DNA from: Pecten maximus
Lineage: Eukaryota
Length of the DNA stretch: 64,000 bases
Direction of reading: 5' to 3'
Assembly: GCF_902652985.1 (NCBI RefSeq)
Contig: NC_047016.1
Span: forward strand, 18,414,001 to 18,478,000
Positions 12,601 through 49,663 of the stretch are shown piece by piece. Both the position numbers and the translations under genes were made by a program. The notes under the pieces are model-generated. The model was not told the DNA's origin. It saw nothing but the letters and a program-made list of their open reading frames with translations, and did not search any database. The first letter of the stretch is position 1. The number at the start of each line of letters is the position of its first letter.

Positions 12601-15600
12601 ACAATTCATGCAGTTTAAATTTTGACAGATATAAAGCCAACCTGATTGATTCACCATTATACAAATGTAACAGAAGAAAACTTCATATTACTATTTTGAA
12701 TGTTATTTATATGAACAAAAAGTCAGGAATTAGGGAATAAAATAAATAATTTGCAACACTTTACTCTGAAAGTGCTGACTCATGGAAATTACGAGCTACT
12801 TGATGATTTTAATATTTACATTCTGGAATATTTTCAAGAGTTTATTTAAGATACTAGATGTTTTGATTTAACAATATTTTGTGAAACATTCCTGGACCTT
12901 TTATATTTTAAATGCCATTTTGTTATTTAAAGATATTGTACTAACGACCTTTTTCTTAGATTAGTTAATAGATTAGCTAATTTATGTATTTCTAGATTTA
13001 ATTTATACACTTTTTTTTATTCATTTCTACATGAAAATATCCACTGATAATTTTTCTAATTTGTTAATGTACATTATAATAATTATGAAAGCTTTAAGCA
13101 TAGTGTGGGGGCATCCGTCCTGAATCTAGCACACCTGGGTGGCAGGCTAGAGGAAGAGATAATTGACACTTATGCTAGAAACCTTCATGTTGATGGATTC
13201 AAGACTTGATGTCATTCCAACACCTCAACACCAGCTACATGTAATATCTCTTTGACATCTTAATGATATATATACATAATATCTACTTTTGGATATTTCA
13301 ATGAAGTTATTATCTCCCTTTTACCAGTAACAGTTTATCAGATTGACAAATCTATAGCATATATGTACCTACTTATCTGCTTCGATCTGTTCTAATAAAA
13401 GGGACTATATGGTTAGAAAACACTATGAGAAATGGATATAAAACGTTATATTTTCTATGAGTATGTTACAAAACTAACACTTTCTCTTAATTACAAAAAT
13501 TAAAAGTCACTGCAACCATTTACGATATATATCTAAAAAATAAAAAAGGTAAACATTTCGGTCTCGAACTAATTCATAAATTACCGCTCGTAGCCTGAAA
13601 ATGCGCATGCGCATAAACCGAGAAAAAAGCAAAATGGCGGACGCAAACCAGAAAAAACGACGAGGTCCTAAAAGTTACTTGACGGAAAGTGCAAGAAAAC
13701 GAAGGAAAAAAGAATCAGAACAGAGAAGAGGAGAGGCGAGAATCTACATAAGCAAAGAGATAGATAGATGGCGAAAGGTAAAGGAAGATCTCGCACTGGA
13801 GACTGATTCTAAATTGGCCACTTTCCAATTCAGCGCCACCTGGCGGATCATAATCCAAGATGGCGGCGTATGGTGTGTCCGTGTCACAGCACATGTTTTT
13901 AGTGTTTTATCAGCGCTACGCGTCAAATTAGACTTTTTCCAGAAAATCTTCGTGCTTAAATGCGTATATAGGTAAGTAAGTCTTTATTTTGGAATGATTT
14001 TATAAGGAAATAAGGCGATATAAGACCGATATACACTTGTTCAAATACCCCAGGTGAGAAACCCTGCAGAATGCTATGTAACTCATTTACACAGGTGTAG
14101 CATTAAAAATCGGTCATTGTATGATTCACGATTCATTTATTAGTTCTTGATTTGTATAGATCGAATAGAATCAGTCACTGCTTATGAAATGACGGCATCA
14201 TAACGATGATAGCGAAATAAATAACGATATATTTATAAATACTATTTGCACCAGGTAACATTACAGGTAATTTTGAAAGGTGTTTTGAATGCCGCCATTT
14301 AGCCTATACTATTTTTAGAGCAGGTGAAAAGTCACGTGATCTATCTAGGATAGTGATCTTCCATTGATTCATTGTATTTTCTATTTCATGTCACCTGACA
14401 TTCGTATTTAAATAAATATTATAAAAAGTACTGGTATAGGCCTAGTGGTTTAAAAACATATTATGAAAACAAACTTTGATTTATATTTTTCAGATACAAA
14501 ATGCCTCATCACTGCTGTGTGCCACATTGTACAAATAATTCCAAGACAAAAGATGGTTACTCTTTTCATACATTCCCTAAAGACCCTTCAGTGGCAAAAA
14601 AGTGGGTGATTGCTATACGCAGAGATCAAGGTGCAGATTTTGATATCAACAAAGAGACAAGAGTATGCTCCGTTCACTTTAACGCAGACTCTTACCATCC
14701 TACCACTGCTATTCATGTTCGAAAACGTTTGCGAGGGACTGCTGTACCATCAGTATTTCAATGGACTGTACAGAAACCCGTCAGAAGGAAACTCAGCCTT
14801 CTCATGAAAAGTCCAAATTGTGGAAATGTAGAATCCAACAATACAAGTTTCCCAGAAAAACATGTTTTGGAAAGCTGTAATAATGATTGTGATGAGCCTT
14901 TACTTGTAGACCAGCCTTTTAGTAGTGAGGATAGTTTAACAAATGTGGATTGGGCTGAATCTCCAGACAAGAGTAAATTAAAAGAAACCAACAGTGTTCT
15001 ACTTCACATTAGGAACAAAGAGAAGTTTTCAATTCTACGGTTTTGTAATTCCGATTCTGATATCAGATATTACACAGGATTTTCATCATACCTAGCCTTA
15101 CACTGTTTCTTCACATTCTTACAACCGGCTTGTAGCTTTTTGTACTATGTAGGGACAGACAACACATCTGAAGGGACACCTTACATATTTCTCAACAAAC
15201 GTGGAAAGTCCAGATCCTTGTCGCCTATGGAAGAGTTATTTGTAACTCTTGTTCGTCTTCGGAAAGGTTTACCAGAAAAACATTTAGGTGACCTGTATAA
15301 CCTTTCTGAGGGACATGTGTCAAAAATACTCAACACTTGGATTGCTTTTCTTGACAACAGACTTTCTTCGCTACCAATTTGGCCACAAAGAGATCATGTG
15401 AATAACACCATGCCAGCAATTTTCAAGACATATTTTTCCTCTACTCGAACCATAATTGACTGCACAGAAATATTCATAGAACACCCATCTGCCTCGGAGT
15501 GTCAGCGGGAGACATTTTCCTCGTACAAACATCACAACACTGCAAAGGGTCTCATTGCCATCGCACCAAGTGGCCAAATCACATTTATTTCTCCGCTCTA

Positions 15601-18600
15601 CTCTGGGCGATGTTCAGACAAGAAAATAATTCGCCATTGTGGATTGTTGGACCTGATAGAGGAAGGAGATGGTGTCATGGTTGATCGCGGCTTTGACATT
15701 ACAACAGATCTTGAAAACAGGGGTGCTCATCTTATAATGCCTGCCTTTTTAAGTGGAAAAGACCAATTCACTCCTGATCAGTTATCTCAATCCAGAGAAA
15801 TAGCAACAGTGCGCGTCCATGTTGAGAGGGCTGTGAGGAAGATCAAAGAATTTGAAATTCTGAGACACACAGTTCCCATCACATTGTGTCCTATGCTTGA
15901 AAAGATATGGAATATTTGTGGACATTTGGCTAATTTCTCAGGGAGTGGAACATTGTTTAGACAACCCAAAGATGTCTCCACTTGTAAAGAATAAAGACAC
16001 ATTGATAATGCTCTCATGTTTAATGAAATGTCAGATTCTTTTCATATATGAACACTTTATAATATGATACATATAAAACATGTTTCCATGGTGATCAAAG
16101 TTTCAAAAATATTATGTTGAATTTTGTACAATTTTTGTGACAATAAAATGCATTTTCAAATACTGTCATAGTAGTAATACCATGAAAAAATTCCAAGCAA
16201 AAAAGTTTGTAAATAATACATTTCTACAAATGAAATATCAGAAATTGTCCAACCGATATTCATATCATCATATATATGCATCAAACATTTATCACTAGTC
16301 ATACATTGTAATATTCCAGTTGTTGTCTAGATCTATAAAAATGTATTGAAGAAATTTTATATTATCACAAGTGATGATATAGGACAACTTGGATTTCACT
16401 GCATCCTTTCTTAAGTTAATCTTTTTTCACTGTTGAAAATATAAAAATAATCTGTCTAAATTATAAACTATATTGAACCATGTATATGAAATGTCAGCAT
16501 AGCGCAGGAAATGAATATTGTTCACATATTTTTAAACTTACTCTTTACAAGAAGTAATGACTATAAATAAATAATTTAACTAAGAAACTGTGAAATTGAA
16601 TGTGGACTAAAAATACAAAATTCAATAGTAACAACTTTCATTTTAATTTTTACATGTTACAAGTCATAATTAAAAAATATCACAATTCAATGTCTTAATG
16701 ACTATGAAACTAATAACAGTATTTCAACAAAAATTCTGTACAGTACAATTGTGACAATGGACATAATTTGTATGACTTGTGCTTGTATTCAATTTTATGC
16801 TACCATACATGGTTTAAGATTGTACTAGTGTACACTGAAACCATCAATATATATGTACATTGTGCTTTTAACACGAGACATGCATATGTCCTACACTAAC
16901 TATCATATTGAACATTACATGTATATGTGTCAGTCACGAGTGCAAAAAAGGAATATAATGTATGAAATATCCTATGTAAAAATTAGAATAAATTTTGTTT
17001 TCCCCAAGTCACTTTAGAATCATGTTTTCACTTACAATACAAACTGTTTTTGTACATGTTGTATGTAAAACCCATCTGCACAGATCTAGACATGTGATAA
17101 TTATGATAATCAACACATTGAAAGAATCTAGTCAACATGCGAAAATATATGGCTACACACCATTTTTCAATATACATAAAGTAAAGTTTGTATTTAAAAT
17201 GTCAGTCTGGATGGGTATTGCATGTGCCTCTTGTACTAAACAATACAAGTCGAGACCTTCACTGATCTTTTGTGCGGAGACAATCAACAAAATGTGGGAG
17301 CAAATGGCTGAAATAGATACTGTTGAGTTTAGGCAACATATTAGAACAGAAAAACTCTGAATCACGATGTATCTCTACTATGGCAATGTCTTCCGGAGGA
17401 ACGAATACTACAAAGTCACACTTCTCTATTCCACACAAATTCAGTTGTCCTTGCACTTGATAAAAGTAGTCGTGGGATTTTTTGAGTTGGATTTCACCAG
17501 TTGTCGGGTTTTTTTCCAAATAAAAGTTTTTCTCCTTCATTTGTGATAATATACTTGTCTTCTTCTTGAATACAGAGTATGGACATTTGATTTCCACCAG
17601 TCTAATCTCATTGTTGACTTTTACTAGTCTATCAGGTGTCACTCCAAGATGGGGTAGTTTGGGGTTTACAACAAGACCAACTGGTGAACTAGCACATGGT
17701 TTTTCCTTTTGATACAAAGCCAAGGCTTGAGCTTCATAATTGATACCGTGACGGACACTTTTTGACGTGAAAAACTTCTTCTTTTGTTGAAACGTATTCA
17801 CAGGGTCTGTTGTATTTTTCAGGCGACAAAAAACACCAAAGTTAGATGCAGTAATACGGTATTGTCTCTCATTAAACCAGAATGAAGTCTTGCTCTGTAG
17901 CCTTGTATTTTTCTCTATGAACTTGGCTCTTTGGGTGTCTACACTCACATTAACTAGGTAATGTTGCTGGATGTCTGATTTGAGTGCCTGTGGCAATTCT
18001 ATTTCACTGAAGCTAGTATTGTCAACCATCTCAAACAAATCTGCGTCTAGGTTTACATCACAGCGTTGCCTACATGCCACAGGTTTGAAATTGTTTTCTC
18101 GAATGGTGTCCAACACTGGAAGGTTTAAACCTGATGCATCAAACAGGTTAACAAGTTTGGTTAGATCATTACCTGTAACAGATCTGGCAAACTCGGGCAC
18201 AGGGTTATGAGTAGCTGCAGCTGCACACAAATCCTTCTTCACGGTCTTAAACGGATCATGTTTGACAAAGTTGATGTCTCTGAACAGAAGAGGCTCATCA
18301 GACGTTGGTTTTCTAACATGCCACAATTGCAACTTGTCTGTGCATGTTTTCACATCGGGCATTGTTTTTACATCCTGGCGGTGAAAGTCAATAAGACAGA
18401 ACAATGTGGCTACAAGGTGCTTACATTGCCCATCTATTCCTGCTGGACATGAGCATGTCCCCCACTTTAATTTTGTTCCTCCATGTTTCAGGCACATGTA
18501 TATGTTATAAGTTTTCTGCTTCATTGCAGCTTGGCATTGACCTCTGAAATATATCAAGTTTCCAGTTGTGGTACTGCTCAAACCTGTTATTTTTCCCTCT

Positions 18601-21600
18601 CGGAATAGTGTCCAGCCTTCAACCCTGTGGCGTTTTGTTTTCACAAAGTCAAGAACACTTTCATCGATGTCCTCAATAGGGAAATCTTCACCCCATCCTG
18701 TCGTTGGTGCCACGCGTCCTTGAAAACTAAGGAGTCCTTTTTTTGAAATTAAAGGGTTTATTTTCATTAGTTCACAGCAGCCAGGACAAAACCATTTTGC
18801 AATGTTCTTAGCTTCTTCTTCATCAAGATTAACACAAGATGGATGGAACCAATCATCACAGAGATCACATCTAACCATTATTTTTTCTGGATCTTCTGGG
18901 GTCTTGCAAACACAGTGCAGTGTACGGTCAGTAGATGCAGACTGGTTCATCTCCTCATGATTTCTTTTTCGAGACATGGTTACTTGTTGTTGGTACCTAT
19001 ATAAGTAAACAAAAATAAATAGACACATGAAGATTAATAAGGTTAAAGCTTATCAATAAATAATAGTACAGCTTATGATATCGTAACATATTAAGCTTTT
19101 CCATGGTAATATTAGCTGTTTATATTATAATAAACCATTAAGACTATATGCATGTATTTATTGCATTTTACTGACAGAAATCCTATATTATCACTAGTGA
19201 TGATATAAGATTTTGACTGTACTGCATGGAAGAAATCTGATAAAATCACTAGTCATAATCAAATGTAAGATTTCTTGAATTCAATGCATTAACATAAAAG
19301 ATACATTCAATGTGCTTTCAGATGTCTGCAAATGCATTTTAAGTTTAACTGCAAATGCAATAAACAGAAAATTTAATAATTTCTCGTTTGATATAAAATA
19401 TATATCACTTGTATTTCAGATTTTATAATTAGATAACACTTGTGCTACACACTCGTGAAAATATAATTTATAAATAAATCTGTCATACTCATGAAATATA
19501 TCTTATATTAAATAGGTAACTCTGAATATCCTCATTGATTCCTATGAGCCATATATATATCAAAATATTCAAAAGCAGATTTTACCCTGTTCTTAAATAG
19601 GCCTAATAAACAACATAACTGAAGATATATATATTTGTCATTATAACATAAAACAGGGCCAAAAACAAAACATCAACATGACTGCTAAAAATCTTTTTTT
19701 ATTTTTGGTTAAAAAAATATTTTCATCATCATGTTTTGTCATTATCAACCTCTTGATGTCACGTGACTCTACCTGCTCGAAATATAAAATGGCGGCATTC
19801 AAAACACCTTTCAAACTTACCTGTAATGTTACCTGGTGCAAATAGTATTTATGGATATATCGTTATTTATTTCGCTATCATCGTTATGATGCCGTCATTT
19901 CATAAGCAGTGACTGATTCTATTCGATCTATACAAATCAAGAACTAATAAATGAATCGTGAATCATACAATGACCGATTTTTAATGCTACACCTGTGTAA
20001 ATGAGTTACATAGCATTCTGCAGGGTTTCTCACCTGGGGTATTTGAACAAGTGTATATCGGTCTTATATCGCCTTATTTCCTTATAAAATCATTCCAAAA
20101 TAAAGACTTACTTACCTATATACGCATTTAAGCACGAAGATTTTCTGGAAAAAGTCTAATTTGACGCGTAGCGCTGATAAAACACTAAAAACATGTGCTG
20201 TGACACGGACACACCATACGCCGCCATCTTGGATTATGATCCGCCAGGTGGCGCTGAATTGGAAAGTGGCCAATTAGCGAAGCTGCTTCTTGACAGGTAA
20301 GCTTAACGCTACGGTATCATGTTAGATATATAACTACTGTATATATAATAGATAAACGTATCCAATATTGCCATTGATGGTCCGGTATCCACCGTTTAAG
20401 CATGATTATGTTATTGAACTTCTCTACTGAAAGTGTCATCTGGTAATGGTTAAATAGTAATTGTATATAAATTTACAATAGTGACACAACGTGTTTGTTG
20501 TTGAACGCAAAGTGGGGCCCAATTGGGGGTATTCGTTCTTAGGAAAATTGATGTGGTGAATAAATACAAGGGCTATTCGATATTATATGGCGGTACTGGT
20601 GATATGAAAATAAACGACAGTGATTATAAACATCACATTTATAATAAACAGTGCAACGTATGTTTATAAAAAATATAAAATGCATATGAAATTCATTAGA
20701 CGGCAGATCTAGATTTTCATACATGTATATATGTATTGTAGTACATATACATTAATGATTATCATATATGGCAGCAAAAGTCCTTATTATTACCATTTCA
20801 TATACAACACAGTAGAGTACAATTAAATGTCATTTAAAAAAAAACCATCAGTATTGTTTTATATTCAAATAATGAATGGTATTGAAAATGTCAATTTCAG
20901 TTATGAATTTAAGAAAATATCAGATAAATCCACCACTTCAACCGGCCACATCCATATGCATTCCACACCTGCAAGAAGATATGTACCTCCACGAGAGTAT
21001 TCAGAAAGTGAAGTCACTATAAGGTATGTTTATATGATTAAGTTTGAGGCAGTTGGAAATGTGGTGTAGCATGGTATGTATAATGACCGTTATAATTACC
21101 GATCACACATACAGATACATAACTTCTATTCTAAATTTAGGACTGGCATTATCAATCATTTACTGTCAATGAAGCACATTAAGAATAAAATGTATAGTGT
21201 TGGTGGGCAAACAATTGCAAGATAAACAACATCAACGATTTATACAGTTTGTGTTGATTTGATTTCTTTTGTTTTGTTTTCCAACTGTTGGTAATTCTAT
21301 GACTAAAAAGTTTGTTCTGTATGTTTATGTGTGTTATTTATGTTTTTTTAAATGAATATTTTAGGTGGATGACTATCTGTTTGGTCTTTGAAGCTTTATG
21401 CACACATGTATTTATATAATGATTCCAGCATGTTTCTTTTATATATATGTTGCTAGATAATGGATATGTTATCATGTAATTAAGTGAAGATTTATATACA
21501 TGATGTGTATATAGGTTCTCTTTTTATTTAGTGGTCGAGAAATGTCAGGAGTGTTTGTGCAAGAATGTTGGAAAGACATGTCATTGCCTGGACCATCCGC

Positions 21601-26744: not shown

Positions 26745-29700
26745 TTGATGTCCCAAGCGATTGAAATTTTCTATAACTATCAAAGGAAGAAGGAACATAA
26801 AAGTAGAAACATAGCGGACCTACTCATTACTTCTGGCATTTATTCTGCACAATTAAACTTTTCACAATGACATACATGTAGCCTAACACTGGTGTGTCAT
26901 ATGTCACACGTACATGTGTAGTACTCTTTATTACTTGCATGTATTCATACCAAAATGATTAACGCAGACTTTATTGTAAACATTAAATATGATTGTATAC
27001 AAAGAAAGTATCAATACCTGTGCATTTCTGAAAAGAAAACAGTCACAAACAAGCTAAAATCTGATTGAATTACTGAATACATCTAGTTTCTGTTCCGATT
27101 GTAATTACCCTTTTTTGGGCCCCACTAGTTGAACGGCAGTGATAGATATATATATTTATCGCACGACAAAGCCCAAATAACACAAATTACCCAGCTCAAT
27201 TTTTGAAACTTATATATTATAACACTATAGAATCATTATTTGCGAACATAAATTAGCAGAAAGGCGCAAAGTATGTGTTATACCGAAGACATGTGCGTTT
27301 GTTTACACTTACCTCGTAATCCATTTTTTCTTTGCGACGGATGTAAATAACTGCGTCACGTGACAAGCCATGTGACCTTTTCGGCTTTCTCCGTAAGCAA
27401 CCGAGCGTGATATTGTTTACAATGTAAACAATGTTCCGACCCCGAAAATATGTACAAAAACACCCAACTTGATGGTGTAGCCGCTGGTATCGCTTAATTA
27501 TGGGTATATCTTATTATTCAAAGGCCGAATTCTTCAATTCCTGAGGTTGATATCTAAGGTAATAGTCCCTTTAATCTATTTAAATTTTGAAAAGGTTTAT
27601 ATAGGCTTAGGCTGCATGCAATAAAATCTGTTGAAATTAAGTATGGATGTTATTGGACAAATTTTAAATTAAAAATCAGTCTATTTTGTAATAAATCGAC
27701 AATGATGTTTTGTCTTTTTCGGTCACATATACGGTATGCATGTTATTGGACAACAAGGGATTTTATTAACAGAAAACATGGTAATAAAAAAATCAATATG
27801 AGGATAGGCAACTAGATGTACTAGAAAACAAAAAGTATCAAATAGTCAAGCACGGATTAACAGACAAACAGGCAATCGTCAAATATTGACGATAATAAGT
27901 TTCGGTGGCTTATTTTAAAGGAATATTTTTCACAAGTAGTATTGTTAGTCTCAATTCACAATATAAACAGATATAGGATATTTATTTTTGGAAATAGCCA
28001 GACCGATGTACAAACGTCACTTTTAAAATCGAAAGTAGAATTGCGATTCTAACACACATATTGTGCGAACTGCTATTGATAAGTTTTAATGATTGCAATA
28101 GTCTTAATTAAGTCTTCAGGAACAGTACCTTAAAGGTACAAAATATCTGGGTTTTTTTTCAAGTAATGCATGCAATCTTTGAAAGTAAATAAAGACACGA
28201 GGCTATTATAGACACTTAAATATAGCCTTATTATGACACATTATTATCGTTTTGTTTAATATTTGATTAATTCATTATTTGATATTTTTATAAAACCACG
28301 TACGATCAGTTAGAAGGTTAGTAAAACATGCAATGGTTATGCTTAGATTGATAGAATGGCTTTTTATTATAGGAAAATATATTATTTCGCATCTGCAATA
28401 ATGGCTATCCTTACTTTGGAACACAGAGAGTCAGCTGTTAATGAACTCTATTGGTCGACTGATACGTGAGGAAAAGTGTACAATTAATCCAGAGAATTTT
28501 GACTTAGAAGTAGACTTTATCAAGGAGGATTCGCCTGGCAAAATGAGTTCTGTACAGGTTCTAGTCAGAGCTAAGCAAGCAAACTCATTTGTACTGCGTA
28601 AGTATGTAAAGTATAATTGGTTTGATTCATCTACTAGGTAATAGGACGCTGTTTTCGTTCGTTTGTTAATACTTTTTACATGGTTGCAAGTATAACTTTT
28701 TTTTCATCATCATATATATTTCTATGTTCTAAAATTGTCATCGTGTTTCCATTTACCTATCATTTAAAATATTATTTATATAGAGGTTACAAAACGAGTG
28801 GTTGTTAGCTAGTGTCTTTTGTAACTTTTAAAAAATAACTTACGAGAATGAAATAAATTCCATATCCAAAAATCACAAGTCGTATGACTTGTTTCTACCA
28901 CAATAATATCGGCCTGAATCAAAGGGAATCGTGGCCAAGTCTTATTTCGCGTATGCAAATAAGGTGTACAGGTGACGGCCGGGACCAGGTGTTGTGACGT
29001 CATTCGATTATTGATGGCTGCAATAACAATTGCAGCTCGGGTCAAAGTTCGAATTCTTTACCAATCAAAAGACCGGAAGGTCATATTCGACTACTGGAAT
29101 ATAACATGTATATATTCAACAGTCAGCACATTTATACAATGGCTTGAGAGTGGAATAACACAGGGTATTGTGGTAGAAGTTATCTGACGTTACATCTTAG
29201 CAAACATAAACATATTTTGTTCCACAACCCAAGCATGGATTTTCTGTTAGGCTTTGAATATTTATTTTGTGATATCATAGTTTCCTGATGTCAATAGTTT
29301 ATTAACTAATTATCTTTTTACACGGAGTGGAGCATGATTTATTGAAAGAATCGAGGGATATTTTATGTTCTGTTATAGAGTTCAAACAATGAAATGTGTT
29401 ACTCCTACCAAATGTCAATGAGTGCAATAAATGAAAGGGAAGTTTATGCATATTATATTTCAATAAATTGATATCTAAATATAGAAATAGGATCGATCAG
29501 TAGGAGAAATGCCCAGCAAATAAACGAAATGTAACGTTGTCTCTTTTGTGTCTGAGAACTGAAAAAGAAAATAATCTCGTAAATTGCATGGTTCTTAAAA
29601 ATAGTGGCACCTGTTCAGAACATAAAAAATGTTTTTTTGTTTAAATTAAGTGAAATGTATCAAATTATGGGGTAAATTTATCTCATGTCTTATTGTCTAC

Positions 29701-30163
29701 TTTTTCGACTTTTTTCTAGATTTTCTCATATTTGTTCTCAAGCGCCATTGACGAGTTGTGAGGAACGATTGTATATTGTGTTGAATTGTACAATTATTGT
29801 CTGATATTTTTCTGAGTATATTAAATAATAAATATATCAATGAACGCTTATTATGAAATATCGAAAATGTGCAGAACAAATTTTGAAATAATTTACAAAT
29901 AATATAATACCTGACAGATTGTTAACTTCTTGAAAGACTAAACAGTAAATCAAAGCTTCGGTTCATTATTCACAGCTACCTTGGGTATTACTGCGGACCT
30001 TACAGAAGGAGAACCCTTGTATCTACATGGAGGTCCCGGTATCAGCCACAAGTACAATTTCCAACAGGTACAGACGCTGGTACAGAGGGCGGGGCTTCAT
30101 TTGGTGGACACGTGGGTCGATGACGAAGAACATGTAATGTTCTGTAAATGTAAAGCGATATAG
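681..30163 (+). CDS. EgtD-like SAM-dependent amino-acid N-methyltransferase (Methyltransf_33 family), copy 1, 7 coding exons, about 317 aa
   Basis: Exons 677/681-851, 4411-4549, 8149-8251, 8891-8994, 10860-10937, 28427-28597, 29976-30163; all GT-AG with compatible phases (0,1,2,1,1,1), 954 nt from ATG 681. Motifs colinear with bacterial EgtD: GLMSTPKYIPGWYIYDKEGSRL, NYYFHRCE, SAM-binding LVDMGSGNCQKT, FYPIDIS, LILWFGS, FSVDITQNREAVIKAY, EGEPLYLHGGPGISHKY, AGLHLVDTWVD. A small upstream exon may lie before the window. Confidence 0.85.
1721..3783. repeat. 44-bp minisatellite, about 47 copies, intron 1 of copy 1
   Basis: Unit aagtctattaacatccaactaaacattgagggtagctcacttca, head to tail with no spacers. 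Confidence 0.97.
5104..6164 (+). mobile_element. Probable solo LTR
   Basis: TGTGG...TCACA ends, TATAAAA near 5284, AATAAA near 5840; absent at the homologous site in the copy 2 intron (about 44730). No clean TSD. Confidence 0.5.
5640..5780. repeat. Degenerate 17-bp repeat inside the putative LTR
   Basis: gtgagtgctcggtagaa variants. Confidence 0.7.
6230..6470 (+). mobile_element. Old SINE-like remnant shared with paralogous intron (44830-45040)
   Basis: ggttttccccggtactac...ttcctcc core and gtttcgcaatt..gtaaaataaat tail at the same position in intron 2 of both gene copies. Confidence 0.5.
9601..9876. repeat. About 34-bp minisatellite, about 8 copies
   Basis: Unit gatggctgatacgttgttgggaatggtcaaggaa with shorter variants. 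Confidence 0.9.
11520..13399 (+). mobile_element. Degenerate non-LTR retrotransposon (CR1/L2-like RT remnants); tail apparently resumes at 27575-27640
   Basis: Fragmented RT-like peptides: KSPRPGEIFPK, KMANV, QSGF, GSVLG..LFINDLP, WADKW, NASSLSIFKNKL; many stops and frameshifts. Confidence 0.65.
13816..14300 (+). repeat. Left long TIR of ISL2EU-type element (about 485 bp, degenerate extension to about 14340)
   Basis: Reverse complement of 19787-20271 with only a few mismatches seen by eye (e.g. tt/cc near 14234, t/g near 14271). Confidence 0.92.
13831..13867. promoter_or_regulatory. CTCF-like and YY1-like motifs in the TIR (mirror at 20220-20256)
   Basis: CCGCCAGGTGGCGCTG (20241-20256; reverse complement at 13831-13846) and CAAGATGGCGGC (13856-13867). 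Confidence 0.45.
14501..15994 (+). CDS. THAP-domain + HTH + DDE_Tnp_4 (Harbinger/ISL2EU-type) transposase, 497 aa
   Basis: THAP C2CH motif CCVPHC...FPKD...W...VCSVHF...AVPSVF; HTH LSPMEELFVTLVRLR; catalytic motifs IIDCTE, SSYKHHNTAK, MVDRGF, RVHVERAVRKIK. Confidence 0.93.
   Translation: MPHHCCVPHCTNNSKTKDGYSFHTFPKDPSVAKKWVIAIRRDQGADFDINKETRVCSVHFNADSYHPTTAIHVRKRLRGTAVPSVFQWTVQKPVRRKLSLLMKSPNCGNVESNNTSFPEKHVLESCNNDCDEPLLVDQPFSSEDSLTNVDWAESPDKSKLKETNSVLLHIRNKEKFSILRFCNSDSDIRYYTGFSSYLALHCFFTFLQPACSFLYYVGTDNTSEGTPYIFLNKRGKSRSLSPMEELFVTLVRLRKGLPEKHLGDLYNLSEGHVSKILNTWIAFLDNRLSSLPIWPQRDHVNNTMPAIFKTYFSSTRTIIDCTEIFIEHPSASECQRETFSSYKHHNTAKGLIAIAPSGQITFISPLYSGRCSDKKIIRHCGLLDLIEEGDGVMVDRGFDITTDLENRGAHLIMPAFLSGKDQFTPDQLSQSREIATVRVHVERAVRKIKEFEILRHTVPITLCPMLEKIWNICGHLANFSGSGTLFRQPKDVSTCKE
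17259..18977 (-). CDS. PHD finger + SWIM zinc finger + YqaJ (lambda exonuclease-like) protein, 572 aa, accessory gene of the ISL2EU-type element
   Basis: True start is probably ATG at 18977 after the acceptor at 18997-18998. PHD HCVC...MVRCDLCDDWFHPSCV...WFCPGC; SWIM CSCPAGIDGQCKH; YqaJ motifs QSKTSFWFNERQYRITAS, HGINYE, LGVTPDRL, EIKCP, YQVQGQL. Confidence 0.92.
   Translation of the reverse strand: MSRKRNHEEMNQSASTDRTLHCVCKTPEDPEKIMVRCDLCDDWFHPSCVNLDEEEAKNIAKWFCPGCCELMKINPLISKKGLLSFQGRVAPTTGWGEDFPIEDIDESVLDFVKTKRHRVEGWTLFREGKITGLSSTTTGNLIYFRGQCQAAMKQKTYNIYMCLKHGGTKLKWGTCSCPAGIDGQCKHLVATLFCLIDFHRQDVKTMPDVKTCTDKLQLWHVRKPTSDEPLLFRDINFVKHDPFKTVKKDLCAAAATHNPVPEFARSVTGNDLTKLVNLFDASGLNLPVLDTIRENNFKPVACRQRCDVNLDADLFEMVDNTSFSEIELPQALKSDIQQHYLVNVSVDTQRAKFIEKNTRLQSKTSFWFNERQYRITASNFGVFCRLKNTTDPVNTFQQKKKFFTSKSVRHGINYEAQALALYQKEKPCASSPVGLVVNPKLPHLGVTPDRLVKVNNEIRLVEIKCPYSVFKKKTSILSQMKEKNFYLEKNPTTGEIQLKKSHDYFYQVQGQLNLCGIEKCDFVVFVPPEDIAIVEIHRDSEFFCSNMLPKLNSIYFSHLLPHFVDCLRTKDQ
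19787..20271 (-). repeat. Right long TIR of ISL2EU-type element
   Basis: Mirror of 13816-14300. Confidence 0.92.
21843..22113. repeat. 36/42-bp minisatellite running into an assembly gap (N 22114-22276)
   Basis: Unit gaataatgaatctgctatgtatgtgtgtgtatgtgt. Confidence 0.92.
22636..22852 (+). mobile_element. tRNA-derived SINE (V-SINE-like) inside a Kolobok intron
   Basis: A-box TGGCTGAGTGG, B-box-like GAGTACGAAACC, central ggtttttatccgagtactccggc, tail ttaaacaaaacaa; TSD ctgtgg(g/a)gtta at 22624-22634 and 22853-22863. Confidence 0.75.
23270..23409 (-). mobile_element. Truncated Helentron/HINE-like terminus
   Basis: (gacg)n microsatellite then hairpin agctcaccggac...gtccaggtgagct-aaaaa; same architecture as 49590-49663. 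Confidence 0.5.
24510..24840. repeat. 29-30-bp tandem repeat between the convergent Kolobok genes
   Basis: gtatgtgtcacaactttgctaag / gtatgtgtcacaggctggctaaa variants alternate in the distal half (dimeric higher-order unit). Confidence 0.88.
25382..27324 (-). pseudogene. KolX-like accessory gene (P2X7 C-terminal cysteine-rich/ballast-like domain) with RG-rich N-terminus
   Basis: Exons 27313-27324 (MDYE, tentative), 26422-26670 (RGRGRGR-rich, in-frame TAA near 26432), 25836-26082 (PDWC/VCGNCREMPTQPEKLCC, 2-nt frameshift near 25922), 25382-25645 (RHAAYRQYILWQVG...VIPSCAVWKIRDRFP...QYTGFK). Confidence 0.82.
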
Positions 30164-39600: not shown

Positions 39601-42600
39601 TCGTGTCCTCGCATGCGCAGTAACATACAAAAGTTACGCGCGAGAAATCGGCGCGTAATTTAAAAGGTTACAAATATTATACTTACAACCCGAACCGGTA
39701 TGTGACAGAAAATATTCTCGTAACTGTTGTTTTTGGAGATTTGTCTACAAGTGCATGTACGGCCTATTGATTTGTTGCAGGCAAACGACACGTCAAATAT
39801 ACACATGGAATTCAAACGAATTGTGTTTGAAAGAACGATACAACTGTCTTTACATGTATAGGACATCTTCGAATTATGATTATTTACTTATTTAATAGAA
39901 TGGATACGAGGAAAGAACTGCTAGACGGCCTGAAGTCGACACCTAAATATATACCTAGTTGGTATCGTTACGACAAGGAAGGGTCGAGGCTGAACGACAT
40001 GTGTCTACAGGAAAATGAAAACTACTACTTCCATAGATGTGAGCTGAATGTATTGAAAGCCCATCTTTCAGTAAGTTATATATTTTAAAATTATAAGAAC
40101 AATGCGTCTCAATAGATAGGAATACCTTGGTATTTTATATTGACTAATTAGACAAAATTGAGAAAAAATAATCAAAACGTTCAAGAGATGATTTTGAAAT
40201 TAATCAGAATTCATTAATGACTTCAGCAGAGCGATGTCGAGTTGTGTTATACCTTTCCGCTAACTGTTATGAGAGTGAGCTGTGAATGTGAGCTATATTA
40301 AGTTATCATCTAAAACAATTGGTGTTGTCCTGTTTTTTTTATGATTTTTTGAATATGCTTAAATTTGAGTCATAGATTCATTGCAGAGACCAATTTCTTG
40401 AAAATAAAGATAAGCCGTTATGTTCTATCAAGTCATAGGACTTGTTGTTACGATTAAAATACCAGGAAGTGATCACATCTCGGTTATGTGAACTTTTGAA
40501 TTATCAATGATGTGTAAAAGGATAGTGGCCAATACATTGTCAATGGAAATCTCCTTGGAAATTAGCCAGTCTTAAAAGAGTATTCCGCTGTTGAAATCAC
40601 TTTATGCTACAAAATAAATGTTAAGGAAATCTGGTATTTTTGGTAAAAGTGATAAACATTACCATAATACAACATATATAATACGTATATAAAGTTTGAA
40701 GACAGTTAAAAGTTCTTAAGTATTAAAGCAAGTACACTTCACTTCACTAACAAAAACGAAAATGACGGACGTGAGTCCCCGAGTTAGCGATTAGCTAATG
40801 GGCAAACAGAAATCAGAATCAGTGAGAAAATTAGGACATGACAATAAAGCGAACGTCATAAAAAGTCATAAAAATCGGCATCCAGATGGAAAGATGGAAG
40901 AAAGCGAAGGAAGCCGGGACAATATATTTCATTTCTATCCAGAAAGCATGGTACCATTTCTCATGTAACGGATAAAATATCATCCTTAAATATGCTGAAT
41001 CAGTCTCTACAGCTAAGTGTTATTATCTAAACATTGCAAATTCTACGAAAGGTCCATCAGGCCGGTAAGTCATCCATGCACTTCGCCTTTAGTTTATATT
41101 CAATAACACGTAAATATACGTTTGATACGCATTAAACAAACCGGTCTACCATAGGTTGAAGTAAGCAATTTTGCTTCATTGCTGACTTAAATGACAAAAT
41201 AAATTAAGGTGACAATGCATCAAATTTGGCATACATTTCTTGGGGTGTCTCGCTGATTTTCTCGAGTCAATACAATCCATGCACATACTTCTGATGAGGA
41301 CGTTTTATCTAGGAAAGATAGACATTTTGATATTGCAAACATATTCTTTACTTCAATCAATTACAAAGTTTGGAATCCCAAATCGATTTATCTAAGTCGC
41401 ATTGCAGGCCACATCCTATACTTTGAACGTCAAATATTGTCAACAGAAAACTCCTTAAAAATATTCATTCTCGAAAATAAGCCATGAAAAATTAAAAAGA
41501 ATATGAATTGCGGCTTTAAGGGGGAATTAATATGATTCTGAGACGATCCCAGTTACCAGCTTAAATTCACAGATCATTCTCACATCCTATAGTGATGAAA
41601 TGTCTTAAAGACACAAGCTGATGATGTCTATTGCATTTCTAAGAATAAATATTACGCACATGCTTCCATTAACATACGATACGCATGGCTGATTCCCATA
41701 TCTTGCCATAGCCAACGGACGTAGTTACTTGTAAAACACACGAAATATTTTGAGATGACCCCTGATAATTCGCCGCAATTATAATAGACAGTGACGCAAA
41801 TCGGTATATGCCATTTTGTGAACAAGGAAACCGCTCCTGAAGAGAAATAAATTTACGTGACGCCATCTGTTTTTTTTAATTAATTCGAATTCATTAATGA
41901 CCTCAGCAGGGCGATGTCGTCGAAAATCTATTTAACAACGATCACACTTTTGAGTGACCACATTTGGTTAAAAGACAAACTCCTTAAAGAGATCATAGTG
42001 GTGGGTAAGTGTTGAAAGTTTTAGAACAATTGCATTATTATAAAGCACGCTTGATGATAGATTTTCGGGAGGATTCATCTATAATAAATACCCTTTGGAA
42101 CCCCAATAAACACAACACATGTAAAGTAACTTCAATATTGAAGAAAACATGGTCTATTATCCACAAATTGCGCACAACGCAGGAATGCCTGCTAGGTCCA
42201 CCAGTATAAAACTTGATATTGAGGGTAGCTCTCTTCAAACCCATACATTTATTGAATAGACAGAACTGGGAAGGCATTTTGAAAAGTTCGATTTCACACA
42301 AAAATGCAATTTGCTTTTCACAAAATGCTGTAATCCCGTTGTCACCCGCTTCGATATAAACTGAATAGCCACCTCTACGATTCGAACTATGTTACGGAGT
42401 TGGTTGTGACCTTGATATGAGCACTACAACTGATTAAAAGGTGATGCTTCAATTATTTTATGTTTACTGATAGTTCTTTATGATTGATTGAACTTCCTTT
42501 TATAAATATTCACTTATTCCTATGAATTCGATATTTCGACCGCGCGACACACAGAGTTTGACACAAATGATTCCCAGGACGGTTTTATAGGAGCAAGGAT

Positions 42601-45205
42601 AGAATCGGACTGCGATGTTTACGAAATTATTTTGATTGGACGTGGGTGAATTTGAAGTACTATGAGCTAATCATGAATATATGCAAATTCAGGCATCATT
42701 CTGGAGCGAATTTAACATTTTTACCCGTATTTTTGTTGTTAAATTCCGTTGATATTTTCAGAATCGCCTCCATGATGCCTAGGTTATGTCGATCTAGCAG
42801 AAACGTTCTATTCACTTCCTCTAAAGCCCTGATAATCTCACATGTATGTTATTTCTGAACTGTTCCTGTAAATTAAACGTATTGGATTTTTCCCACATTG
42901 ACCTGATGTATGTACTGTACAGTATATGTTATGCTCACAGATCGTGCAGAAGCGAGCGAGCGGCTTCTGACTATATATATATATATATATATTTCATACG
43001 CATAGAATGATGTTAATCCGGTCGAATTTATGGACAAATAAAACTGATTTAATTTGGTAATTTCATTGAGTCTAATTTAAGTAGAAATTGAAATATCACT
43101 TATTAAAGTAAGGACTAAGGGAATCTTCCATATTATATTGATTTTCAGTATATCCATGAAAAATATTTACAGATCAATATTTTGACAAACCTGTACGAAA
43201 AAGATCCTCTGGCCATATCAAAGTATCATAAAGAATGTGGTTTGCCTAATACAATTTCAGATTGCCATTGGTGTGTATCAATTTTGAATTACATTTGGTT
43301 AGGCACTATCTGACCATAGATATTGGTGGCCATGTATCAACCTACCGGATAGAATGTGAAAGGGTATCCTCCTCATACTCGGCGAAACTGTTTAGCCCGT
43401 TGATACACGATGTGTTCCACGTGTCTCGGTATCTCGGTGTTCCCTGGTCCGATTCGGGTTACACATACACATTGATAACTAGACATTATGTTTAACACCA
43501 AATTTAGGATATTTAACAAAAATATATTTGAATATTGTTAAGTGTTGCCATTCAATTTATTATTGATGTATTTAAACAATTGGACCTTGCGTATATGAAC
43601 TCAGTATACGGTGAGATCTCCTCTGCCTAGAGGATATGACGTGATTTCTCCAACTTTTGGGATATTTCTGATTATATTCACCTCGGCAGAGCCTCGAGTT
43701 GGACAGTTCAGTACATTATATCTAGGGTTTGAAATTTCTCTGTCATACCCTCAAGGTAGAGGAAACTTATATTTTCATACTAATTCAAAGTCAGGTTCTA
43801 AGGTTTTATAATGTCATTGTGCAATACATTGTAAGAGTATTAAGCTAGTCCTTATTAAAAACTTCTGATTTGTTTTCCAGTCTATGCTGACGTTTGATAC
43901 CGAAAAGACCGATCTTGTCGACATGGGAAGCGGGAACTGCCAAAAAACACGTTTATTTATTGATAATATATTACAAAATCACGACAAGCTGACTTTTTAT
44001 CCCGTTGATATCTCACATGGTATGTAGTCTCTTTCTTTTCTGGTTATTCTCTAATATTTTTATATTACATGAATTCGATTAATCAAAGTGCGCCAGCCCC
44101 TGATAAACGCATGTTTTGTAGTGTCATTCATGAAATGGTATATATATTTGTCAGAAGAAAACTATATATATATATAAATACCGCGAAAGATAAGTTATAA
44201 GACATCCGTGTGTCTATAGTGAGTAACCACGACACAAACTAAAAACAATCACCAGTTTAAAAGAATGTGCTACCTTATCAATATCTTAGTTGGAGGCAGT
44301 TAAAATTTGATTTCGGGCGAATCCCAGAGTAGAGATATAATACAATATCGACCAAAAAGTGCAATTGGTTTGGTTCAGTTTGGTTTTGTGCCTTTTAAAC
44401 TAAATGCGGCCATTTAAGGACGGTGTCAACGAATCCGCTATCAAACGCTTTCATGGTGAAATCATATTGAAAAGACATACATGGACATAGCTGTGAAACA
44501 CCCGAGTCATTCAAATTATTTTTACAACGGGGGAATCAGTCCATAGGACCAGCTATCAAATATGATGTAGAGTATCAATTTCGGTTTTTCTTGGCTAGGG
44601 ATCCCACGACATCCTTTGTAGGTATGAACGCTCATCTTTTGATCAATAGTGAGATATAACTCATATTCATTTTAGATGTTGTTTTAAAGTAACTTATAGA
44701 TACTGACGTTTTCAGGAAAATACATTTTGGACACCAGGTCACATAATTGTCTCATTTTATAATCTATCAGCCTGCTTCAATCATGAACTAATATTTTAAG
44801 GGCTGAAAACGGTAGAACAGAGGTAAAACCCGTGTATTTCATTTAGATGGTCGGGGGTGAAATGCCCCTATATGCCGTGAAAAGGTATTGGGGTCAACTG
44901 GCCGACCGCGTAAGTTTTCTGTGGGTACTCCAGTCTCCTTCCACAGAAAGATTTCTCGTTCGTTTCCATCCGAGCCAACAGGGGAGATTATGTAATGCTA
45001 ATATAACCTCGTTTCGCAATTGTTGTAAAATAAATAGGTCTGTTATTATAGTAATCAATATTTGATTGAGTCAGGTAACATATTTATTTATTTATTTATT
45101 TTTTGTATCTACAATATTTATTTAATGGTCATATTTATCTTCTCTCTCAGGTCAATGGCATAGTACAGGGCAGGAAATATGGCATTACACTTAATACATT
45201 AATCT

Positions 45206-46420
45206 TCTTTTTTTTTAATTTGTTATTTTCTATTGCATCATTCATTTCAACATTTCATTTACATCATGTTACATATAGTTTCAACAGTAAATTCCATGAC
45301 TTATATAGTTGAAATTGTTGGATTTATATGAAGATAGATCGGACACTTTCCCACTTTTGCCGAGCCATATTGGTTGGAAGATTGTAGACCGAATATAGAT
45401 TTGAACTTCTATAATTCTTTATAAAGGTTTTACAATTTTCCCAATTTGGAATGTGTTTGTATTGTCTTTGCAGAGATTTGTATTTCTTAATCAAAAGAAT
45501 TACTAGATTAAGACCCATTGGTTGTCTGTCATCAAGCGGGAAAGAGTCAGGTTTTCTTTCTAGCCTTATACTATAACATTGATTAAGAGAGTTAATAAGA
45601 CTTGTCCATAATGATTGAATAATGAATCCCAAAAGAGATGGCAAATTGTTTCTGGTGCTCCACTACAAAAACTGCACTCTCCGTTTTCAAGAACTTTTAA
45701 TAACATTGCATTAGTAAAGAACACTCTATGAGTAATTCTATATTGGATACTTTGTAGTTTAGAGTCATTTGTTTCCTTAAACGGAATAACATGGATTTTT
45801 TCCCACTCGTTTTTGCATAAAGATATATCTAACAAGGTATGCCATCTCTCATGAGATTTAATAGGCCACCTTTATAATAATATTTTCATAGAAGTATCTT
45901 GATGGTTTTCAATACTTTTAACTTGATTTAAGTTGTTATGTACAATATTTTCAATACTTTGTCTGTGGTAATTGACCAATCTCTTCCAGCCTCTTGGAAT
46001 GGTACTAATGAGACTAATGAAGTTCATGAACTTAATGTGAACTTGATATTTTTGTATAAATTGTTCATATGTCATAAAAATTCCATTTCCATCAACAAGG
46101 TCCTTTACATAGTATATATCAGCATCACATAATTTCTTTAAAAAAAACAACAGGGCGTCTATTTATTCTAATACTTTTCTTAAACCGTAAAGACTGGTAG
46201 AGAATATCCTCAGGGGCTGCGGGGAGGTATTTAATAATGAGAACCCCAAATCTGTAAAAATTATTTAAAAAAGTTTTCCCTTCTTCTTAATTCTGTAAGA
46301 CCAAAACTGGTTAAACTCTATATTTTATCGCCAACATATTTTTCAATATGGTCAATGAATAGTTTTTTCCGGTCTGAATAATTATCATAGTCTAAACATT
46401 TTTTATCCATATTACTTACA
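45206..46420 (-). mobile_element. 5'-truncated L1/Tx1-like LINE remnant (3' end with zf-RVT-type cysteine motif)
   Basis: Minus-strand peptides QSIQYRITHRVFFTN and CSFCSGAPETICHLFW, plus YVKDLVDGNGIFMTYEQF; T-rich tail near 45206. Confidence 0.7.
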
Positions 46421-48030
46421 AGATTTATTTAATGGTCATATTTATCTTCTCTCTCAGGCCAATAGCATACATGTAATACAGGACAGGAATGATTGCATTT
46501 CACTTGATACATTAATCTGTTTTAGAGTTTTTATCGGACACCTGCAGACAACTTTCTGAAGAATATGCTGAAAAACTCGAAATCAAACCTATTCCTGCTG
46601 ATTATGAAACTGGCATCAGTGAAATCAGGTAGACACGGGTTTCTTTTTCGTTTATTTCTTTGTGTGATAGTTTCGGTCCTGGTCCTTAAGAGCTTTCATT
46701 GATTGAAAAATGCAATCGACAGACCATTTTTCGAAGAAGCTTCATAATGTTATGCCTATCATGAAGTGCACCACGACGTCTAAAATACGTCGTTACTCGT
46801 CTGATGAAAGGTAAAAGGCGAAAACATATGATATCGTGCTATTCAACACGGCTAACGATAGAGTATTGCGTGTCAAACGGTGCATTATTCAACGATTTTA
46901 TGTTTATCTAATGTTTTTCGAGTTTAAATGTGCATGATATATTATGTATTTTTGTATTCTGTATATCAATATGTATGTTATATTATATCATCTATATTGT
47001 AATTTTCCTTTTCTATTTATGCTTTATATTTCAGCATTTTTATTTTATATTTCTCATTCAATATTTTGTGTTTACCTTCTAAAACTTTTTTATTTCCATT
47101 AACTTTAAAATCTAATATAAGCAACAACAAAAATATATATATATATATGAAATAATGCAACGTTTCATATGCCATAGCAGGGACAATGAAGGGGAATTGC
47201 GTTTGTTGTCCTAAGAACACAATTTATGAAAACAATCAGTTTGAATCATGTTCCGATGCTTTAGCACTTTTAATTTTAACTGTATAAGCATCAGCAAAAA
47301 CATGTAAAGGAAACCCTTATTCTAGCTCCAAATCGATCAAAATGTGGATTTTCATGGAAAACAAAGAGGAATTAGACAGACGTTATTTCGGAAAAGTATG
47401 TGACTTCATCTTCATCAATGACACCCGACATAGAAATTCAGAGCAAATCCGGGTTACGTGACATCCTCAAATTAGGTGGTGAAAACGGAATCTGGCAAGA
47501 TGCACCAACAAGCACCGAACACGTCGGAAAGCAGAAGGAAATCGACCATTTCTAAATATTGTTATGGTCGGAATCAAATAACATCGACTTGTGCTGTCCT
47601 TTTGTTTTAACTGGAGTCAACAATGTCTTAGTAACCACCTGAATCAATCGACTCCCTGTCATGTGTGATCACGTTCTTCCATCCCGATGTTCCTATTACT
47701 AGTTACCGGAGCCTGGATTCATAGACTACCTGTCATATGTGACATTTTTGCTGCCCCGTTGGAAGGTCACATACAATTGTTGGCTAGTTTGACTAAATAT
47801 GTGCAAGAATGTTCCACACATAGAAAACAGCATTGTAATTATTCCATGAACTATTTCATGTTTCATTAAAAGCCTGCATAATAAGAAACAGTCGTATATT
47901 TTTCTATTAACCAATTCCATTTCCCTAAATGCTACCACACATGTTGAATAATGTTAGATTATAATGACTTCTAGGGAAGTGTGTATGGGGGATATCTTAG
48001 GTCAAATGTAACCCCCCCCCCCCCCCCACC

Positions 48031-48068
<38 letters not shown>

Positions 48069-49099: not shown

Positions 49100-49663
49100 A
49101 CATAATATCGCTCCTAGACCTCTAATGGAGGTATAAACCATATAAGAAGGGTGTGGACTTACAACCTTTCCAAAACTAACCCCCAAAATCTTTTAAAGTG
49201 GGTTTTTGTGTCAAAAAAGTAAGTACACTAAATGGTAAAATGCGAAAAAATCACATTTTTTGTCTGCATGATTTTGCCATAACATCACTCATAGACCTCT
49301 AATGAATGTATAAACCAGTTAAGAAGGGCATGAGGTGTATACTTTTGGACTTGCAAACTTTCCAAAAACTGAACCTAAAAACTTTAAAGTGGGTTTTGGT
49401 GCCAAATAAGTTAGATCCACAAATGATAAAATGCGAAAAAATCACAATTTTTTCCGCATGATTTTGCCATAACGTCACTCCTAGACCGCTAATGAATGTA
49501 TAAACCAAATTAGAAGGGCATGAGGTGTATACTTTTGGACTTACAAGCTTTCCAAAAAGTTACTCCAAAAACTTTAAAGTTTTGGGGGTGGGACGCCGAC
49601 GCCGACGCGGACGCCGGGGTGACAGTATTAGCTCTCGGTTACTCGTAACCGGTGAGCTAAAAA
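49100..49663 (-). mobile_element. Helentron/HINE-like non-autonomous element with internal tandem repeats of about 180-190 bp
   Basis: About 2.5 units starting ctcctagacctctaatg (near 49111, 49288, 49478), gacgcc microsatellite, terminal hairpin agctc..ggttac..gtaacc..gagct followed by an A-run. Confidence 0.55.

What the first reader, a model, noticed from the sequence alone, without database searches (positions are those of the whole stretch)
29976..30163. Substrate pocket remodelled: the EgtD His-binding Glu motif is replaced by HGGPGISHKY
Seen in both copies: TEVSCKF-type motif becomes YLHGGPGISHKY (no Glu, Gly/Pro insertion); FLGSTIGN becomes WFGS-IQ(I/S)L; GSDLF becomes GSRLN; the AYDDAAGVT loop is shorter. 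The carboxylate-contacting Tyr (NYY), Tyr (KAY) and Ser (ISHK) positions and the SAM loop appear kept. From memory of the mycobacterial EgtD structure, Glu282 binds the imidazole and changing it switches specificity. Inference: the substrate is amino-acid-like but probably not free histidine. The paralogues also differ at pocket-proximal sites (IQIL/IQSL, AYSG/AYND, HESQLL/HARQMF).
Basis: partly seen in the sequence, partly recalled or inferred. Interest (0 to 1): 0.7.

Follow-up and report, generated by a model that had tools for sequence, protein, structure and literature searches.

The report
Scallop EgtD-like methyltransferase with rebuilt pocket
This is the last exon of a spliced, transcribed scallop gene from a little-studied animal branch of the bacterial ergothioneine enzyme EgtD, greatly multiplied in this genome, whose histidine-gripping pocket has been rebuilt so that it likely methylates a different, probably bulkier amino acid that is not yet identified.

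Summary
Observation confirmed, but most of it is family-wide, not private to the two copies. 29976-30163 is exon 7 of an open 317-codon PF10017 gene (copy A). Its exon 6-7 joint is spliced in 3 of 4 laid runs. A frameshifted tandem copy B lies 24 kb on. The four-residue insertion and the loss of Glu at the EgtD-282 position mark an animal clade found in bivalves, hemichordates and lancelets (31 of 31 animal rows against 0 of 119 canonical rows). In a model of the 70%-identical orthologue the insertion breaks the strand that carries Glu282. The genome has 38 matches to this exon, and all 36 others read His-Glu; only this pair has His-Gly (GAA to GGA). The carboxylate clamp (Y56, Y206, S284) and SAM loop are kept. 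F47, N166, T213, N217 and E282 are replaced, and M252 is Val, as in the engineered tryptophan-binding EgtD M252V/E282A. Best reading: a SAM-dependent N-methyltransferase of an aromatic amino acid bulkier than histidine (tryptophan-type, or ovothiol A giving ovothiol B, known from scallop and mussel). The substrate is inferred, and no residue-level superposition was possible. A decaying duplicate is the main rival.

The parts
681..851 (+). Copy A coding exon 1 (Y39 and Y56 equivalents kept; F47 to Asn32)
   Evidence: identical to database model P0008 residues 1-57
4411..4549 (+). Copy A exon 2 (SAM loop DMGSG, K92 and D113 equivalents)
8149..8251 (+). Copy A exon 3 (D141 equivalent)
8891..8994 (+). 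Copy A exon 4 (N166 to Ile154, codon 8937-8939)
10860..10937 (+). Copy A exon 5 (Y206 kept; conserved D208 to Gly)
28427..28597 (+). Copy A exon 6 (T213 position Glu199, N217 position Leu203, M252 position Val243 at 28558-28560)
   Evidence: covered by RNA-type contigs and joined to exon 7
29976..30163 (+). Copy A exon 7, the finding: four-residue insertion in the Glu282 strand; S284 and K286 kept
30029..30031 (+). GGA (Gly274), where 36 of 36 other genome matches have Glu
   Evidence: same letters in contig X1 record 8
39900..53904 (+). Copy B, same seven exons (39900-40070, 43881-44019, 46526-46628, 48669-48773, 50300-50377, 53151-53323, 53717-53904), with three +1 insertions near 48762, 53265 and 53289
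   Evidence: database models P0015, P0337 and P0338 read the exon-4 frameshift and stop early
13812..20275 (.). DNA transposon in intron 5 of copy A (489-nt inverted arms, THAP/DDE_Tnp_4 and PHD/YqaJ ORFs); a passenger that may explain the truncated database model

Best explanation
Copy A is an open, spliced gene of an animal branch of the EgtD family that likely encodes a SAM-dependent N-methyltransferase acting on the alpha-amino group of an aromatic L-amino acid bulkier than histidine, probably tryptophan-like or the bivalve antioxidant ovothiol A. Shown: gene structure, family, the fold of the orthologue, which residues are kept and which are lost, and the exon 6-7 splice. Inferred: SAM binds at the intact loop; Tyr42, Tyr194 and Ser279 hold the carboxylate as in EgtD; the strand that carried Glu282 bulges into a seven-residue loop and Met252 is Val, which would enlarge the side-chain subsite; loss of Phe47 and Asn166 would favour one methylation over three. 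The Glu-to-Gly change of this pair would be a late tuning or loosening of that loop, not the origin of the new pocket.
For: Gene: open 317-codon frame with GT-AG introns. The GT..AG joint 28597-29976 is in 3 of 4 runs from separate studies, and one contig is identical over 29976-30122. dN/dS between A and B is 0.31, bootstrap 0.20-0.51. Fold: the orthologue model (pLDDT 96.6) matches EgtD at TM 0.87-0.89 and Z 38.2, rmsd 1.8 over 304 residues. Kept: Y39, Y56, Y206, S284, K286, the SAM loop, D113 and D141; the carboxylate roles are. Lost: T213 (112 of 119 canonical rows), N217 (101 of 119), E282 (112 of 119), F47 (115 of 119) and N166 (116 of 119). A canonical model has one strand over 283-290; the animal model has strand 269-271, loop 272-278, strand 279-281. 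M252 aligns with Val, and M252V/E282A was solved with tryptophan (4PIP title). Ovothiol B, the mono-N-alpha-methyl form, is reported from a scallop and from mussels, both of which have this clade.
Against: No activity data. No coordinates were available, so which residue occupies the Glu282 site (His273, residue 274 or Gly277) is untested; profile alignments put the gap on either side. M252 is Ser in 31 of 119 canonical rows, so a small residue there is not diagnostic. N217 becomes Leu, Phe or Tyr, which could fill the pocket rather than open it. N166, called critical for methylation, is Ile in copy A. The tryptophan variant ties with the histidine complexes in the fold search (Z 37.5 against 38.0-38.2). 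No echinoderm was among the named hits although sea urchins make ovothiol C (the searches have limited sensitivity). One paper suggests OvoA's own methyltransferase domain could make ovothiols B and C. The model is of the Asp-bearing orthologue P0004, not of copy A.
Confidence: 0.5

Rival explanations
1. The pair is a duplicate lineage under relaxed selection: the clade has a real function, but the Glu-to-Gly change and copy A's other pocket changes are decay, and copy B is already a pseudogene.
For: Copy A departs from residues conserved in most animal rows at 8 positions, including N166, D208 and E274. 5 of 17 A-derived changes fall in a 33-position pocket set (Fisher p 0.02, set drawn after seeing the data; B 2 of 18). 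Copy B has three frameshifting insertions. The database models of both copies are truncated. A transposon sits in intron 5. 4 of 38 genome matches have stops.
Against: The frame is intact and spliced contigs come from three studies. dN/dS is well below 1, and A and B have equal numbers of derived changes (17 and 18). Contigs with B-type letters in exon 6 list no insertion, so B's breaks may be assembly errors or one allele. SAM and carboxylate residues are untouched. Pocket clustering fits a specificity shift equally well.
Confidence: 0.2
2. The subclade methylates a ring or imino nitrogen next to a carboxylate, the best candidate being picolinate to homarine: the clamp holds the carboxylate, no N-H is present so Asn166 is dispensable, and aromatic residues fill the side-chain subsite.
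For: N166 is free to vary in this subclade (Ile, Ser, Cys, Asn). N217 is Tyr, Phe or Leu, and the T213 loop is shorter. Homarine is present in mussels. A homarine-synthesizing enzyme was reported from turban shell in 1995 (reference entry only). Copy A would weigh 36.4 kDa, near the subunit size I recall for that enzyme (recalled, unverified).
Against: No named gastropod or crustacean member among the clusters looked up. Most family members weigh 36-39 kDa, so mass says little. Val at M252 points to a larger pocket. The 1995 paper was not held.
Confidence: 0.12
3. The expanded scallop set is a diet-facing detoxification battery of broad-specificity N-methyltransferases for algal or microbial amino-acid-like compounds, and copy A has no single endogenous substrate.
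For: 38 matches in tandem clusters (35 with exon 1). The T213 position is hypervariable among paralogues. All named carriers are suspension or deposit feeders: bivalves, hemichordates and lancelets.
Against: No tissue or induction data (runs are coded, and contigs give no expression level). The window's subclade has only one or two copies per species in my searches and strong conservation (63-70% identity across four scallop genera).
Confidence: 0.1
4. It is still a histidine N-methyltransferase (hercynine route), with a rewired pocket in which His273, and Glu199 in copy A, replace Glu282 and Thr213.
For: EgtD is by far the closest fold. Database names say histidine N-alpha-methyltransferase-like. 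Copy A has Glu199 at the T213 position by helix register.
Against: Below the TIGR03438 cut-off (156 against 290.9 for P0004). Five histidine and methyl-pocket determinants are replaced. The names are automatic.
Confidence: 0.08

Closest known systems
EgtD, L-histidine N-alpha-trimethyltransferase of mycobacteria (PF10017, TIGR03438; PDB 4PIM, 4PIO, 4UY6, 7SCF)
   Same: Fold (TM 0.87-0.89, Z about 38), length, SAM loop, carboxylate clamp Y56/Y206/S284, Y39 and K286.
   Different: About 23% identity; four-residue insertion breaking the Glu282 strand; F47N, N166I, T213E, N217L, M252V; two-residue shorter loop after Y206; seven-exon animal gene; below the equivalog cut-off.
Engineered EgtD M252V/E282A solved with tryptophan (PDB 4PIP); natural aromatic amino acid betaine synthases of fungi (recalled: tryptophan- and tyrosine-specific members)
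   Same: Val at 252 and no Glu at 282, with the clamp retained.
   Different: In the animal protein the 282 site is a new loop, not a point change; N166, F47, T213 and N217 are also changed; activity unknown.
EasF-type fungal methyltransferases (TIGR03439); ImqF (one database model of copy B is named imqF-like)
   Same: PF10017 members acting on substrates other than histidine (substrates recalled).
   Different: Score 123.9 against cut-off 205.55 for the orthologue; different pocket motif.
Automatically annotated 'histidine N-alpha-methyltransferase-like' proteins of scallops, mussels, oysters, hemichordates and lancelets
   Same: Same clade; they share the insertion. Scallop orthologues are 63-70% identical.
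   Different: Nearly all bivalve members keep His-Glu or His-Asp and most keep N166; none is characterised in the papers I could search.

Membership tests
Methyltransf_33 (PF10017) | Profile score over the Pfam cut-off | tested here: met
   Exons 1, 2 and 7 score 37, 34.7 and 23.6 against 23; 4 shorter exons gave no hit
Methyltransf_33 (PF10017) | EgtD two-domain class I methyltransferase fold | tested here: met
   Orthologue P0004 model: TM 0.87-0.89, Z 35-38, next family Z 19.8; copy A itself was not folded
Methyltransf_33 (PF10017) | SAM loop (E/D)xGxG with K92, D113 and D141 | tested here: met
EgtD (TIGR03438 equivalog) | Whole-protein score over 290.9 | tested here: not met
   6 of 6 animal proteins score 152-215; canonical control P0098 342.6; run on relatives, not on spliced copy A
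EgtD (TIGR03438 equivalog) | Carboxylate clamp Y56, Y206, S284 | tested here: met
   Tyr42, Tyr194, Ser279; roles
EgtD (TIGR03438 equivalog) | Glu282 in sequence, either register | tested here: not met
   His or Gly in copy A; Glu in 0 of 31 (N-terminal register) or 2 of 31 (C-terminal register) animal rows against 112 of 119 canonical
EgtD (TIGR03438 equivalog) | An acidic side chain at the Glu282 site in space | tested here: inconclusive
   Only secondary structure and whole-chain superposition were returned; no residue pairs
EgtD (TIGR03438 equivalog) | Asn166, Thr213, Phe47 | tested here: not met
   Ile154, Glu199, Asn32
EgtD (TIGR03438 equivalog) | Trimethylation of L-histidine | not testable with these tools
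   needs an enzyme assay
EasF family (TIGR03439) | Score over 205.55 | tested here: not met
   6 of 6 animal proteins score 108-138
Tryptophan-type EgtD variants (M252V/E282A) | Val at 252 | tested here: met
   Val243
Tryptophan-type EgtD variants (M252V/E282A) | Small residue at 282 | tested here: inconclusive
   Gly277 or His273 depending on register
Tryptophan-type EgtD variants (M252V/E282A) | Tryptophan methylation | not testable with these tools
   needs an enzyme assay

The most novel reading that the evidence does not exclude
Filter-feeding animals keep their own ancient branch of EgtD-fold enzymes, multiplied to about 30 genes in scallops with a hypervariable pocket, and this branch supplies the missing animal N-methyltransferases for known marine metabolites: ovothiol B from ovothiol A and, in the Asn166-free subclade of this window, possibly homarine from picolinate.
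Probability: 0.25. Interest if true: 0.8.

Novelty: new variant of a known kind. Interest (0 to 1): 0.52.

Why it matters
Animals are described as taking up, not making, histidine betaines such as ergothioneine (abstract listing). Yet bivalves, acorn worms and lancelets carry an intron-bearing EgtD-like clade that databases label as histidine methyltransferases, and the pocket says the label is probably wrong. The clade gives a short, testable candidate list for enzymes that the passages I read leave unassigned: N-alpha methylation of ovothiol A in scallops and mussels, and homarine synthesis in molluscs. The scallop expansion is also a natural library of pocket variants.

Tried and rejected
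Residue-level superposition: the fold tools return no coordinates or residue pairs, so the Glu282 site stays open. Foldseek's top rank for the tryptophan variant 4PIP was not used as evidence; it ties with the histidine complexes. 'No Glu is a private novelty with a new pocket': rejected, because the insertion is clade-wide. 'A and B are two haplotypes of one gene': rejected, since dS is 0.22 and the introns align only in patches of about 65-82%. A hidden micro-exon restoring the short loop: unlikely, as the orthologues share the two-residue shortening. Mussel proteins sharing GSRLN and WFGS.Q as direct orthologues: not supported by the quick tree. A DinB_2 search for OvoA/EgtB in the own genome gave 0 candidates, which is uninformative for a spliced gene. 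Copy B's insertions could not be checked directly on RNA; only indirect evidence from copy A's exon 6 exists (with 58 difference rows and 190 loose ends not shown). The exon 5-6 joint was not displayed; it is inferred from 79 and 169 extra upstream letters on two contigs. Run X7 barely covers exon 7, which proves nothing. Earlier-finding look-ups by place and by sequence gave nothing. ESM Atlas only confirmed PF10017 and a mollusc-rich cluster. Literature searches for a description of the animal clade: methyltransf_33 + betaine 0; EgtD + E282A 0; EgtD + bivalve 0; histidine N-alpha-methyltransferase + scallop, none of the 30 listed held both terms; EgtD + metazoa + horizontal gene transfer, two ovothiol papers held all three terms (listing); homarine + picolinic + methyltransferase 0; two searches gave the ovothiol and homarine papers cited. 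Subscription journals are mostly missing, and the primary EgtD papers and the 1995 homarine paper were not held. No complex was predicted. The careful tree did not finish; quick trees were used.
Full report
What is there. The window is AT-rich animal DNA. The finding's coordinates are exactly the last coding exon of a seven-exon gene (copy A, 681-30163) with GT-AG introns and an open 317-codon frame. Exons 1, 2 and 7 each pass the PF10017 cut-off. A second copy (B, 39900-53904) has the same exons but three single-base insertions, one in exon 4 and two in exon 6. Database models labelled Pecten maximus match the window's exons: P0008 covers copy A exons 1-5 and ends at 199 residues, and P0015, P0337 and P0338 read copy B's exon-4 frameshift. 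Neither model includes the exon in question.

Is it expressed? Twenty of 24 listed runs hold part of the exon-7 stretch; one of the 20 is on record as RNA and most others are guessed RNA. Four runs of four studies were laid on 28380-30190. The GT..AG joint 28597-29976 appears in 3 of 4, and the intron is almost uncovered apart from a repeat. One contig matches 29976-30122 with no difference, so the Gly codon is in the transcript. Two contigs begin one base before exon 6, with 79 and 169 further upstream letters. That fits exon 5 (78 nt) and exons 4-5, but the letters were not shown. Contigs with B-type letters in exon 6 list no insertion, so copy B's breaks may be assembly errors or one allele; this is indirect. 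Contigs give no expression level or tissue.

The family. Exon 7 has 38 matches in the own genome, 29 on large contigs in clusters and 9 on small contigs that may be haplotype duplicates; 4 have stops. Exon 1 gives 35. All 36 matches outside the window read His-Glu at the motif (35; L024, as the pattern kept a spurious later match). The window pair reads His-Gly, GGA against GAA or GAG, a one-base change. Scallop orthologues at 63-70% identity have Glu (P0001, P0003) or Asp (P0004). Profile searches and look-ups of 30 clusters name members in scallops, mussels, oysters, Dreissena, Sinanodonta, three hemichordates and lancelets. Several members are unnamed, and none was named as echinoderm, gastropod, crustacean or cnidarian. 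In a quick tree of 57 rows, the 32 animal-type rows lie on one side of a branch (SH-aLRT 97), and copy A sits in a six-row scallop subclade (99). The root and the origin of the clade were not tested.

The pocket. EgtD numbers were counted from the PDB rows printed. From passages of PMC8593015: the carboxylate is bound by Y56, Y206 and S284, the alpha-amino group by N166, and the imidazole nitrogen through a water set by T213; E282 is called important. Passages of PMC9103826 call N166 and G161 critical for sequential methylation. Against 119 canonical rows and 31 animal rows including copy A (fragments and short models were left out), Y39, Y56, Y206, S284 and K286 are kept in copy A and in nearly all animal rows. 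The E277-K286 spacing is 9 in 119 of 119 canonical rows and 13-15 in 31 of 31 animal rows. Position 282 is Glu in 0 or 2 of 31 animal rows, depending on register. The next residue is acidic in 27 of the 30 other animal rows. T213 survives in 1 of 31 and N217 in 3 of 31, and the T213 position varies widely among paralogues. F47 is lost in all scallop rows that cover it. N166 is kept in 13 of 14 other scallop paralogues but is Ser, Cys, Asn or Ile in the window's subclade. M252 aligns with Val243. The Y206-N219 loop is two residues short in this subclade.

Structure. Copy A's spliced protein could not be folded, so the orthologue P0004 was (pLDDT 96.6). It matches EgtD over its whole length. A canonical relative folded the same way has one strand through the Glu282 region (283-290). 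In P0004 the three positions T281-E282-V283 are replaced by a seven-residue non-strand loop (272-278) at high confidence. The remodelling is therefore structural, but which side chain faces the substrate is untested.

Selection. Between A and B, with the inserted bases skipped as gaps, dS is 0.22, dN 0.068 and the ratio 0.31 (0.20-0.51). Of 45 amino-acid differences, 17 are A-derived, 18 B-derived and 10 unclear. A's changes are enriched in a pocket set drawn after seeing the data (5 of 17, p 0.02; B 2 of 18). This fits either a specificity shift or local decay.

How it likely works. SAM binds as in EgtD and the clamp holds an alpha-carboxylate next to the nitrogen to be methylated (inferred from conservation). 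The side-chain subsite no longer reads imidazole. Val at 252 with no Glu at 282 mirrors the engineered variant solved with tryptophan (PDB title), so a bulkier aromatic amino acid is the best-supported class (0.5). Within it, ovothiol A is the best-known bivalve candidate (about 0.2 on its own). Ovothiol B is the mono-N-alpha-methyl form, reported from the scallop Chlamys hastata (passages of PMC9890322, and PMC9103826) and from mussel tissues, where ovothiol C was not distinguishable (passages of PMC7175103). The three described biosynthetic steps end at ovothiol A. The link between Phe47 or Asn166 and the number of methyl groups is partly recalled from the primary EgtD papers, which were not held. 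Rivals: decay (0.2), picolinate to homarine (0.12; passages of PMC5618318, and introduction of PMC13236597; the 1995 enzyme paper seen as a reference entry only), broad detoxification (0.1) and histidine (0.08). Passages of PMC11664081, PMC5790434, PMC10903977, PMC10978996 and PMC13674229 added nothing on the pocket. No supplements were read.

Membership and novelty. It is a member of PF10017 and works like EgtD in fold and cofactor, but it is not an EgtD: 6 of 6 animal proteins miss the TIGR03438 cut-off while a canonical control passes. The genes are in databases under an automatic histidine-methyltransferase name. My searches found no study of the animal clade, within a library that lacks most subscription journals.

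Verdict. Observation confirmed; interpretation partly supported. New variant of a known kind, interest 0.52. The value lies in the animal clade and its scallop expansion rather than in the one Glu-to-Gly change.

Noticed in passing
window 13812-20275: DNA transposon with 489-nt, 99% inverted arms and two open, convergent ORFs (THAP+HTH_Tnp_4+DDE_Tnp_4 at 14480-15994 +; PHD+YqaJ at 17259-19049 -), ISL2EU/Harbinger-like by recall and probably recently active, inside intron 5 of copy A.
   Followed up: partly
window 28746-29233: High-copy repeat in intron 6 of copy A, at summed depths of hundreds to tens of thousands in RNA-type contigs, with some opposite-strand joints; MITE-like.
   Followed up: no
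window 61101-62060 (+): Innexin coding stretch (PF00876).
   Followed up: no
window 1721-3783: 44-bp satellite, 47 copies, 95% matches, in intron 1 of copy A; other arrays at 9602-9874, 21866-22110, 24500-24843 and 59861-60612. The last one explains the spurious long ORFs near 59730-60632.
   Followed up: partly
P0028, P0205, P0206, P0209, P0210 (Mytilus): Mussel proteins share GSRLN and WFGS.Q[SN]L with the window's subclade but do not group with it in the quick tree: convergence on one pocket type, a retained ancestral state, or tree error.
   Followed up: partly
L003-L038 (G000 C11, C13 and others): Tandem clusters of 11-12 family matches each on C11 and C13, some with stops: a birth-and-death expansion not described in the papers searched.
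   Followed up: partly
window 28427-28597: Some RNA-type contigs mix A-type and B-type letters in exon 6, and one joint is listed from 28532 to exon 7: gene conversion, a cryptic splice, or contig and alignment artefacts.
   Followed up: no
window 36575-36640 and 39010-39255: Alternative upstream exons used by database models of copy B.
   Followed up: no
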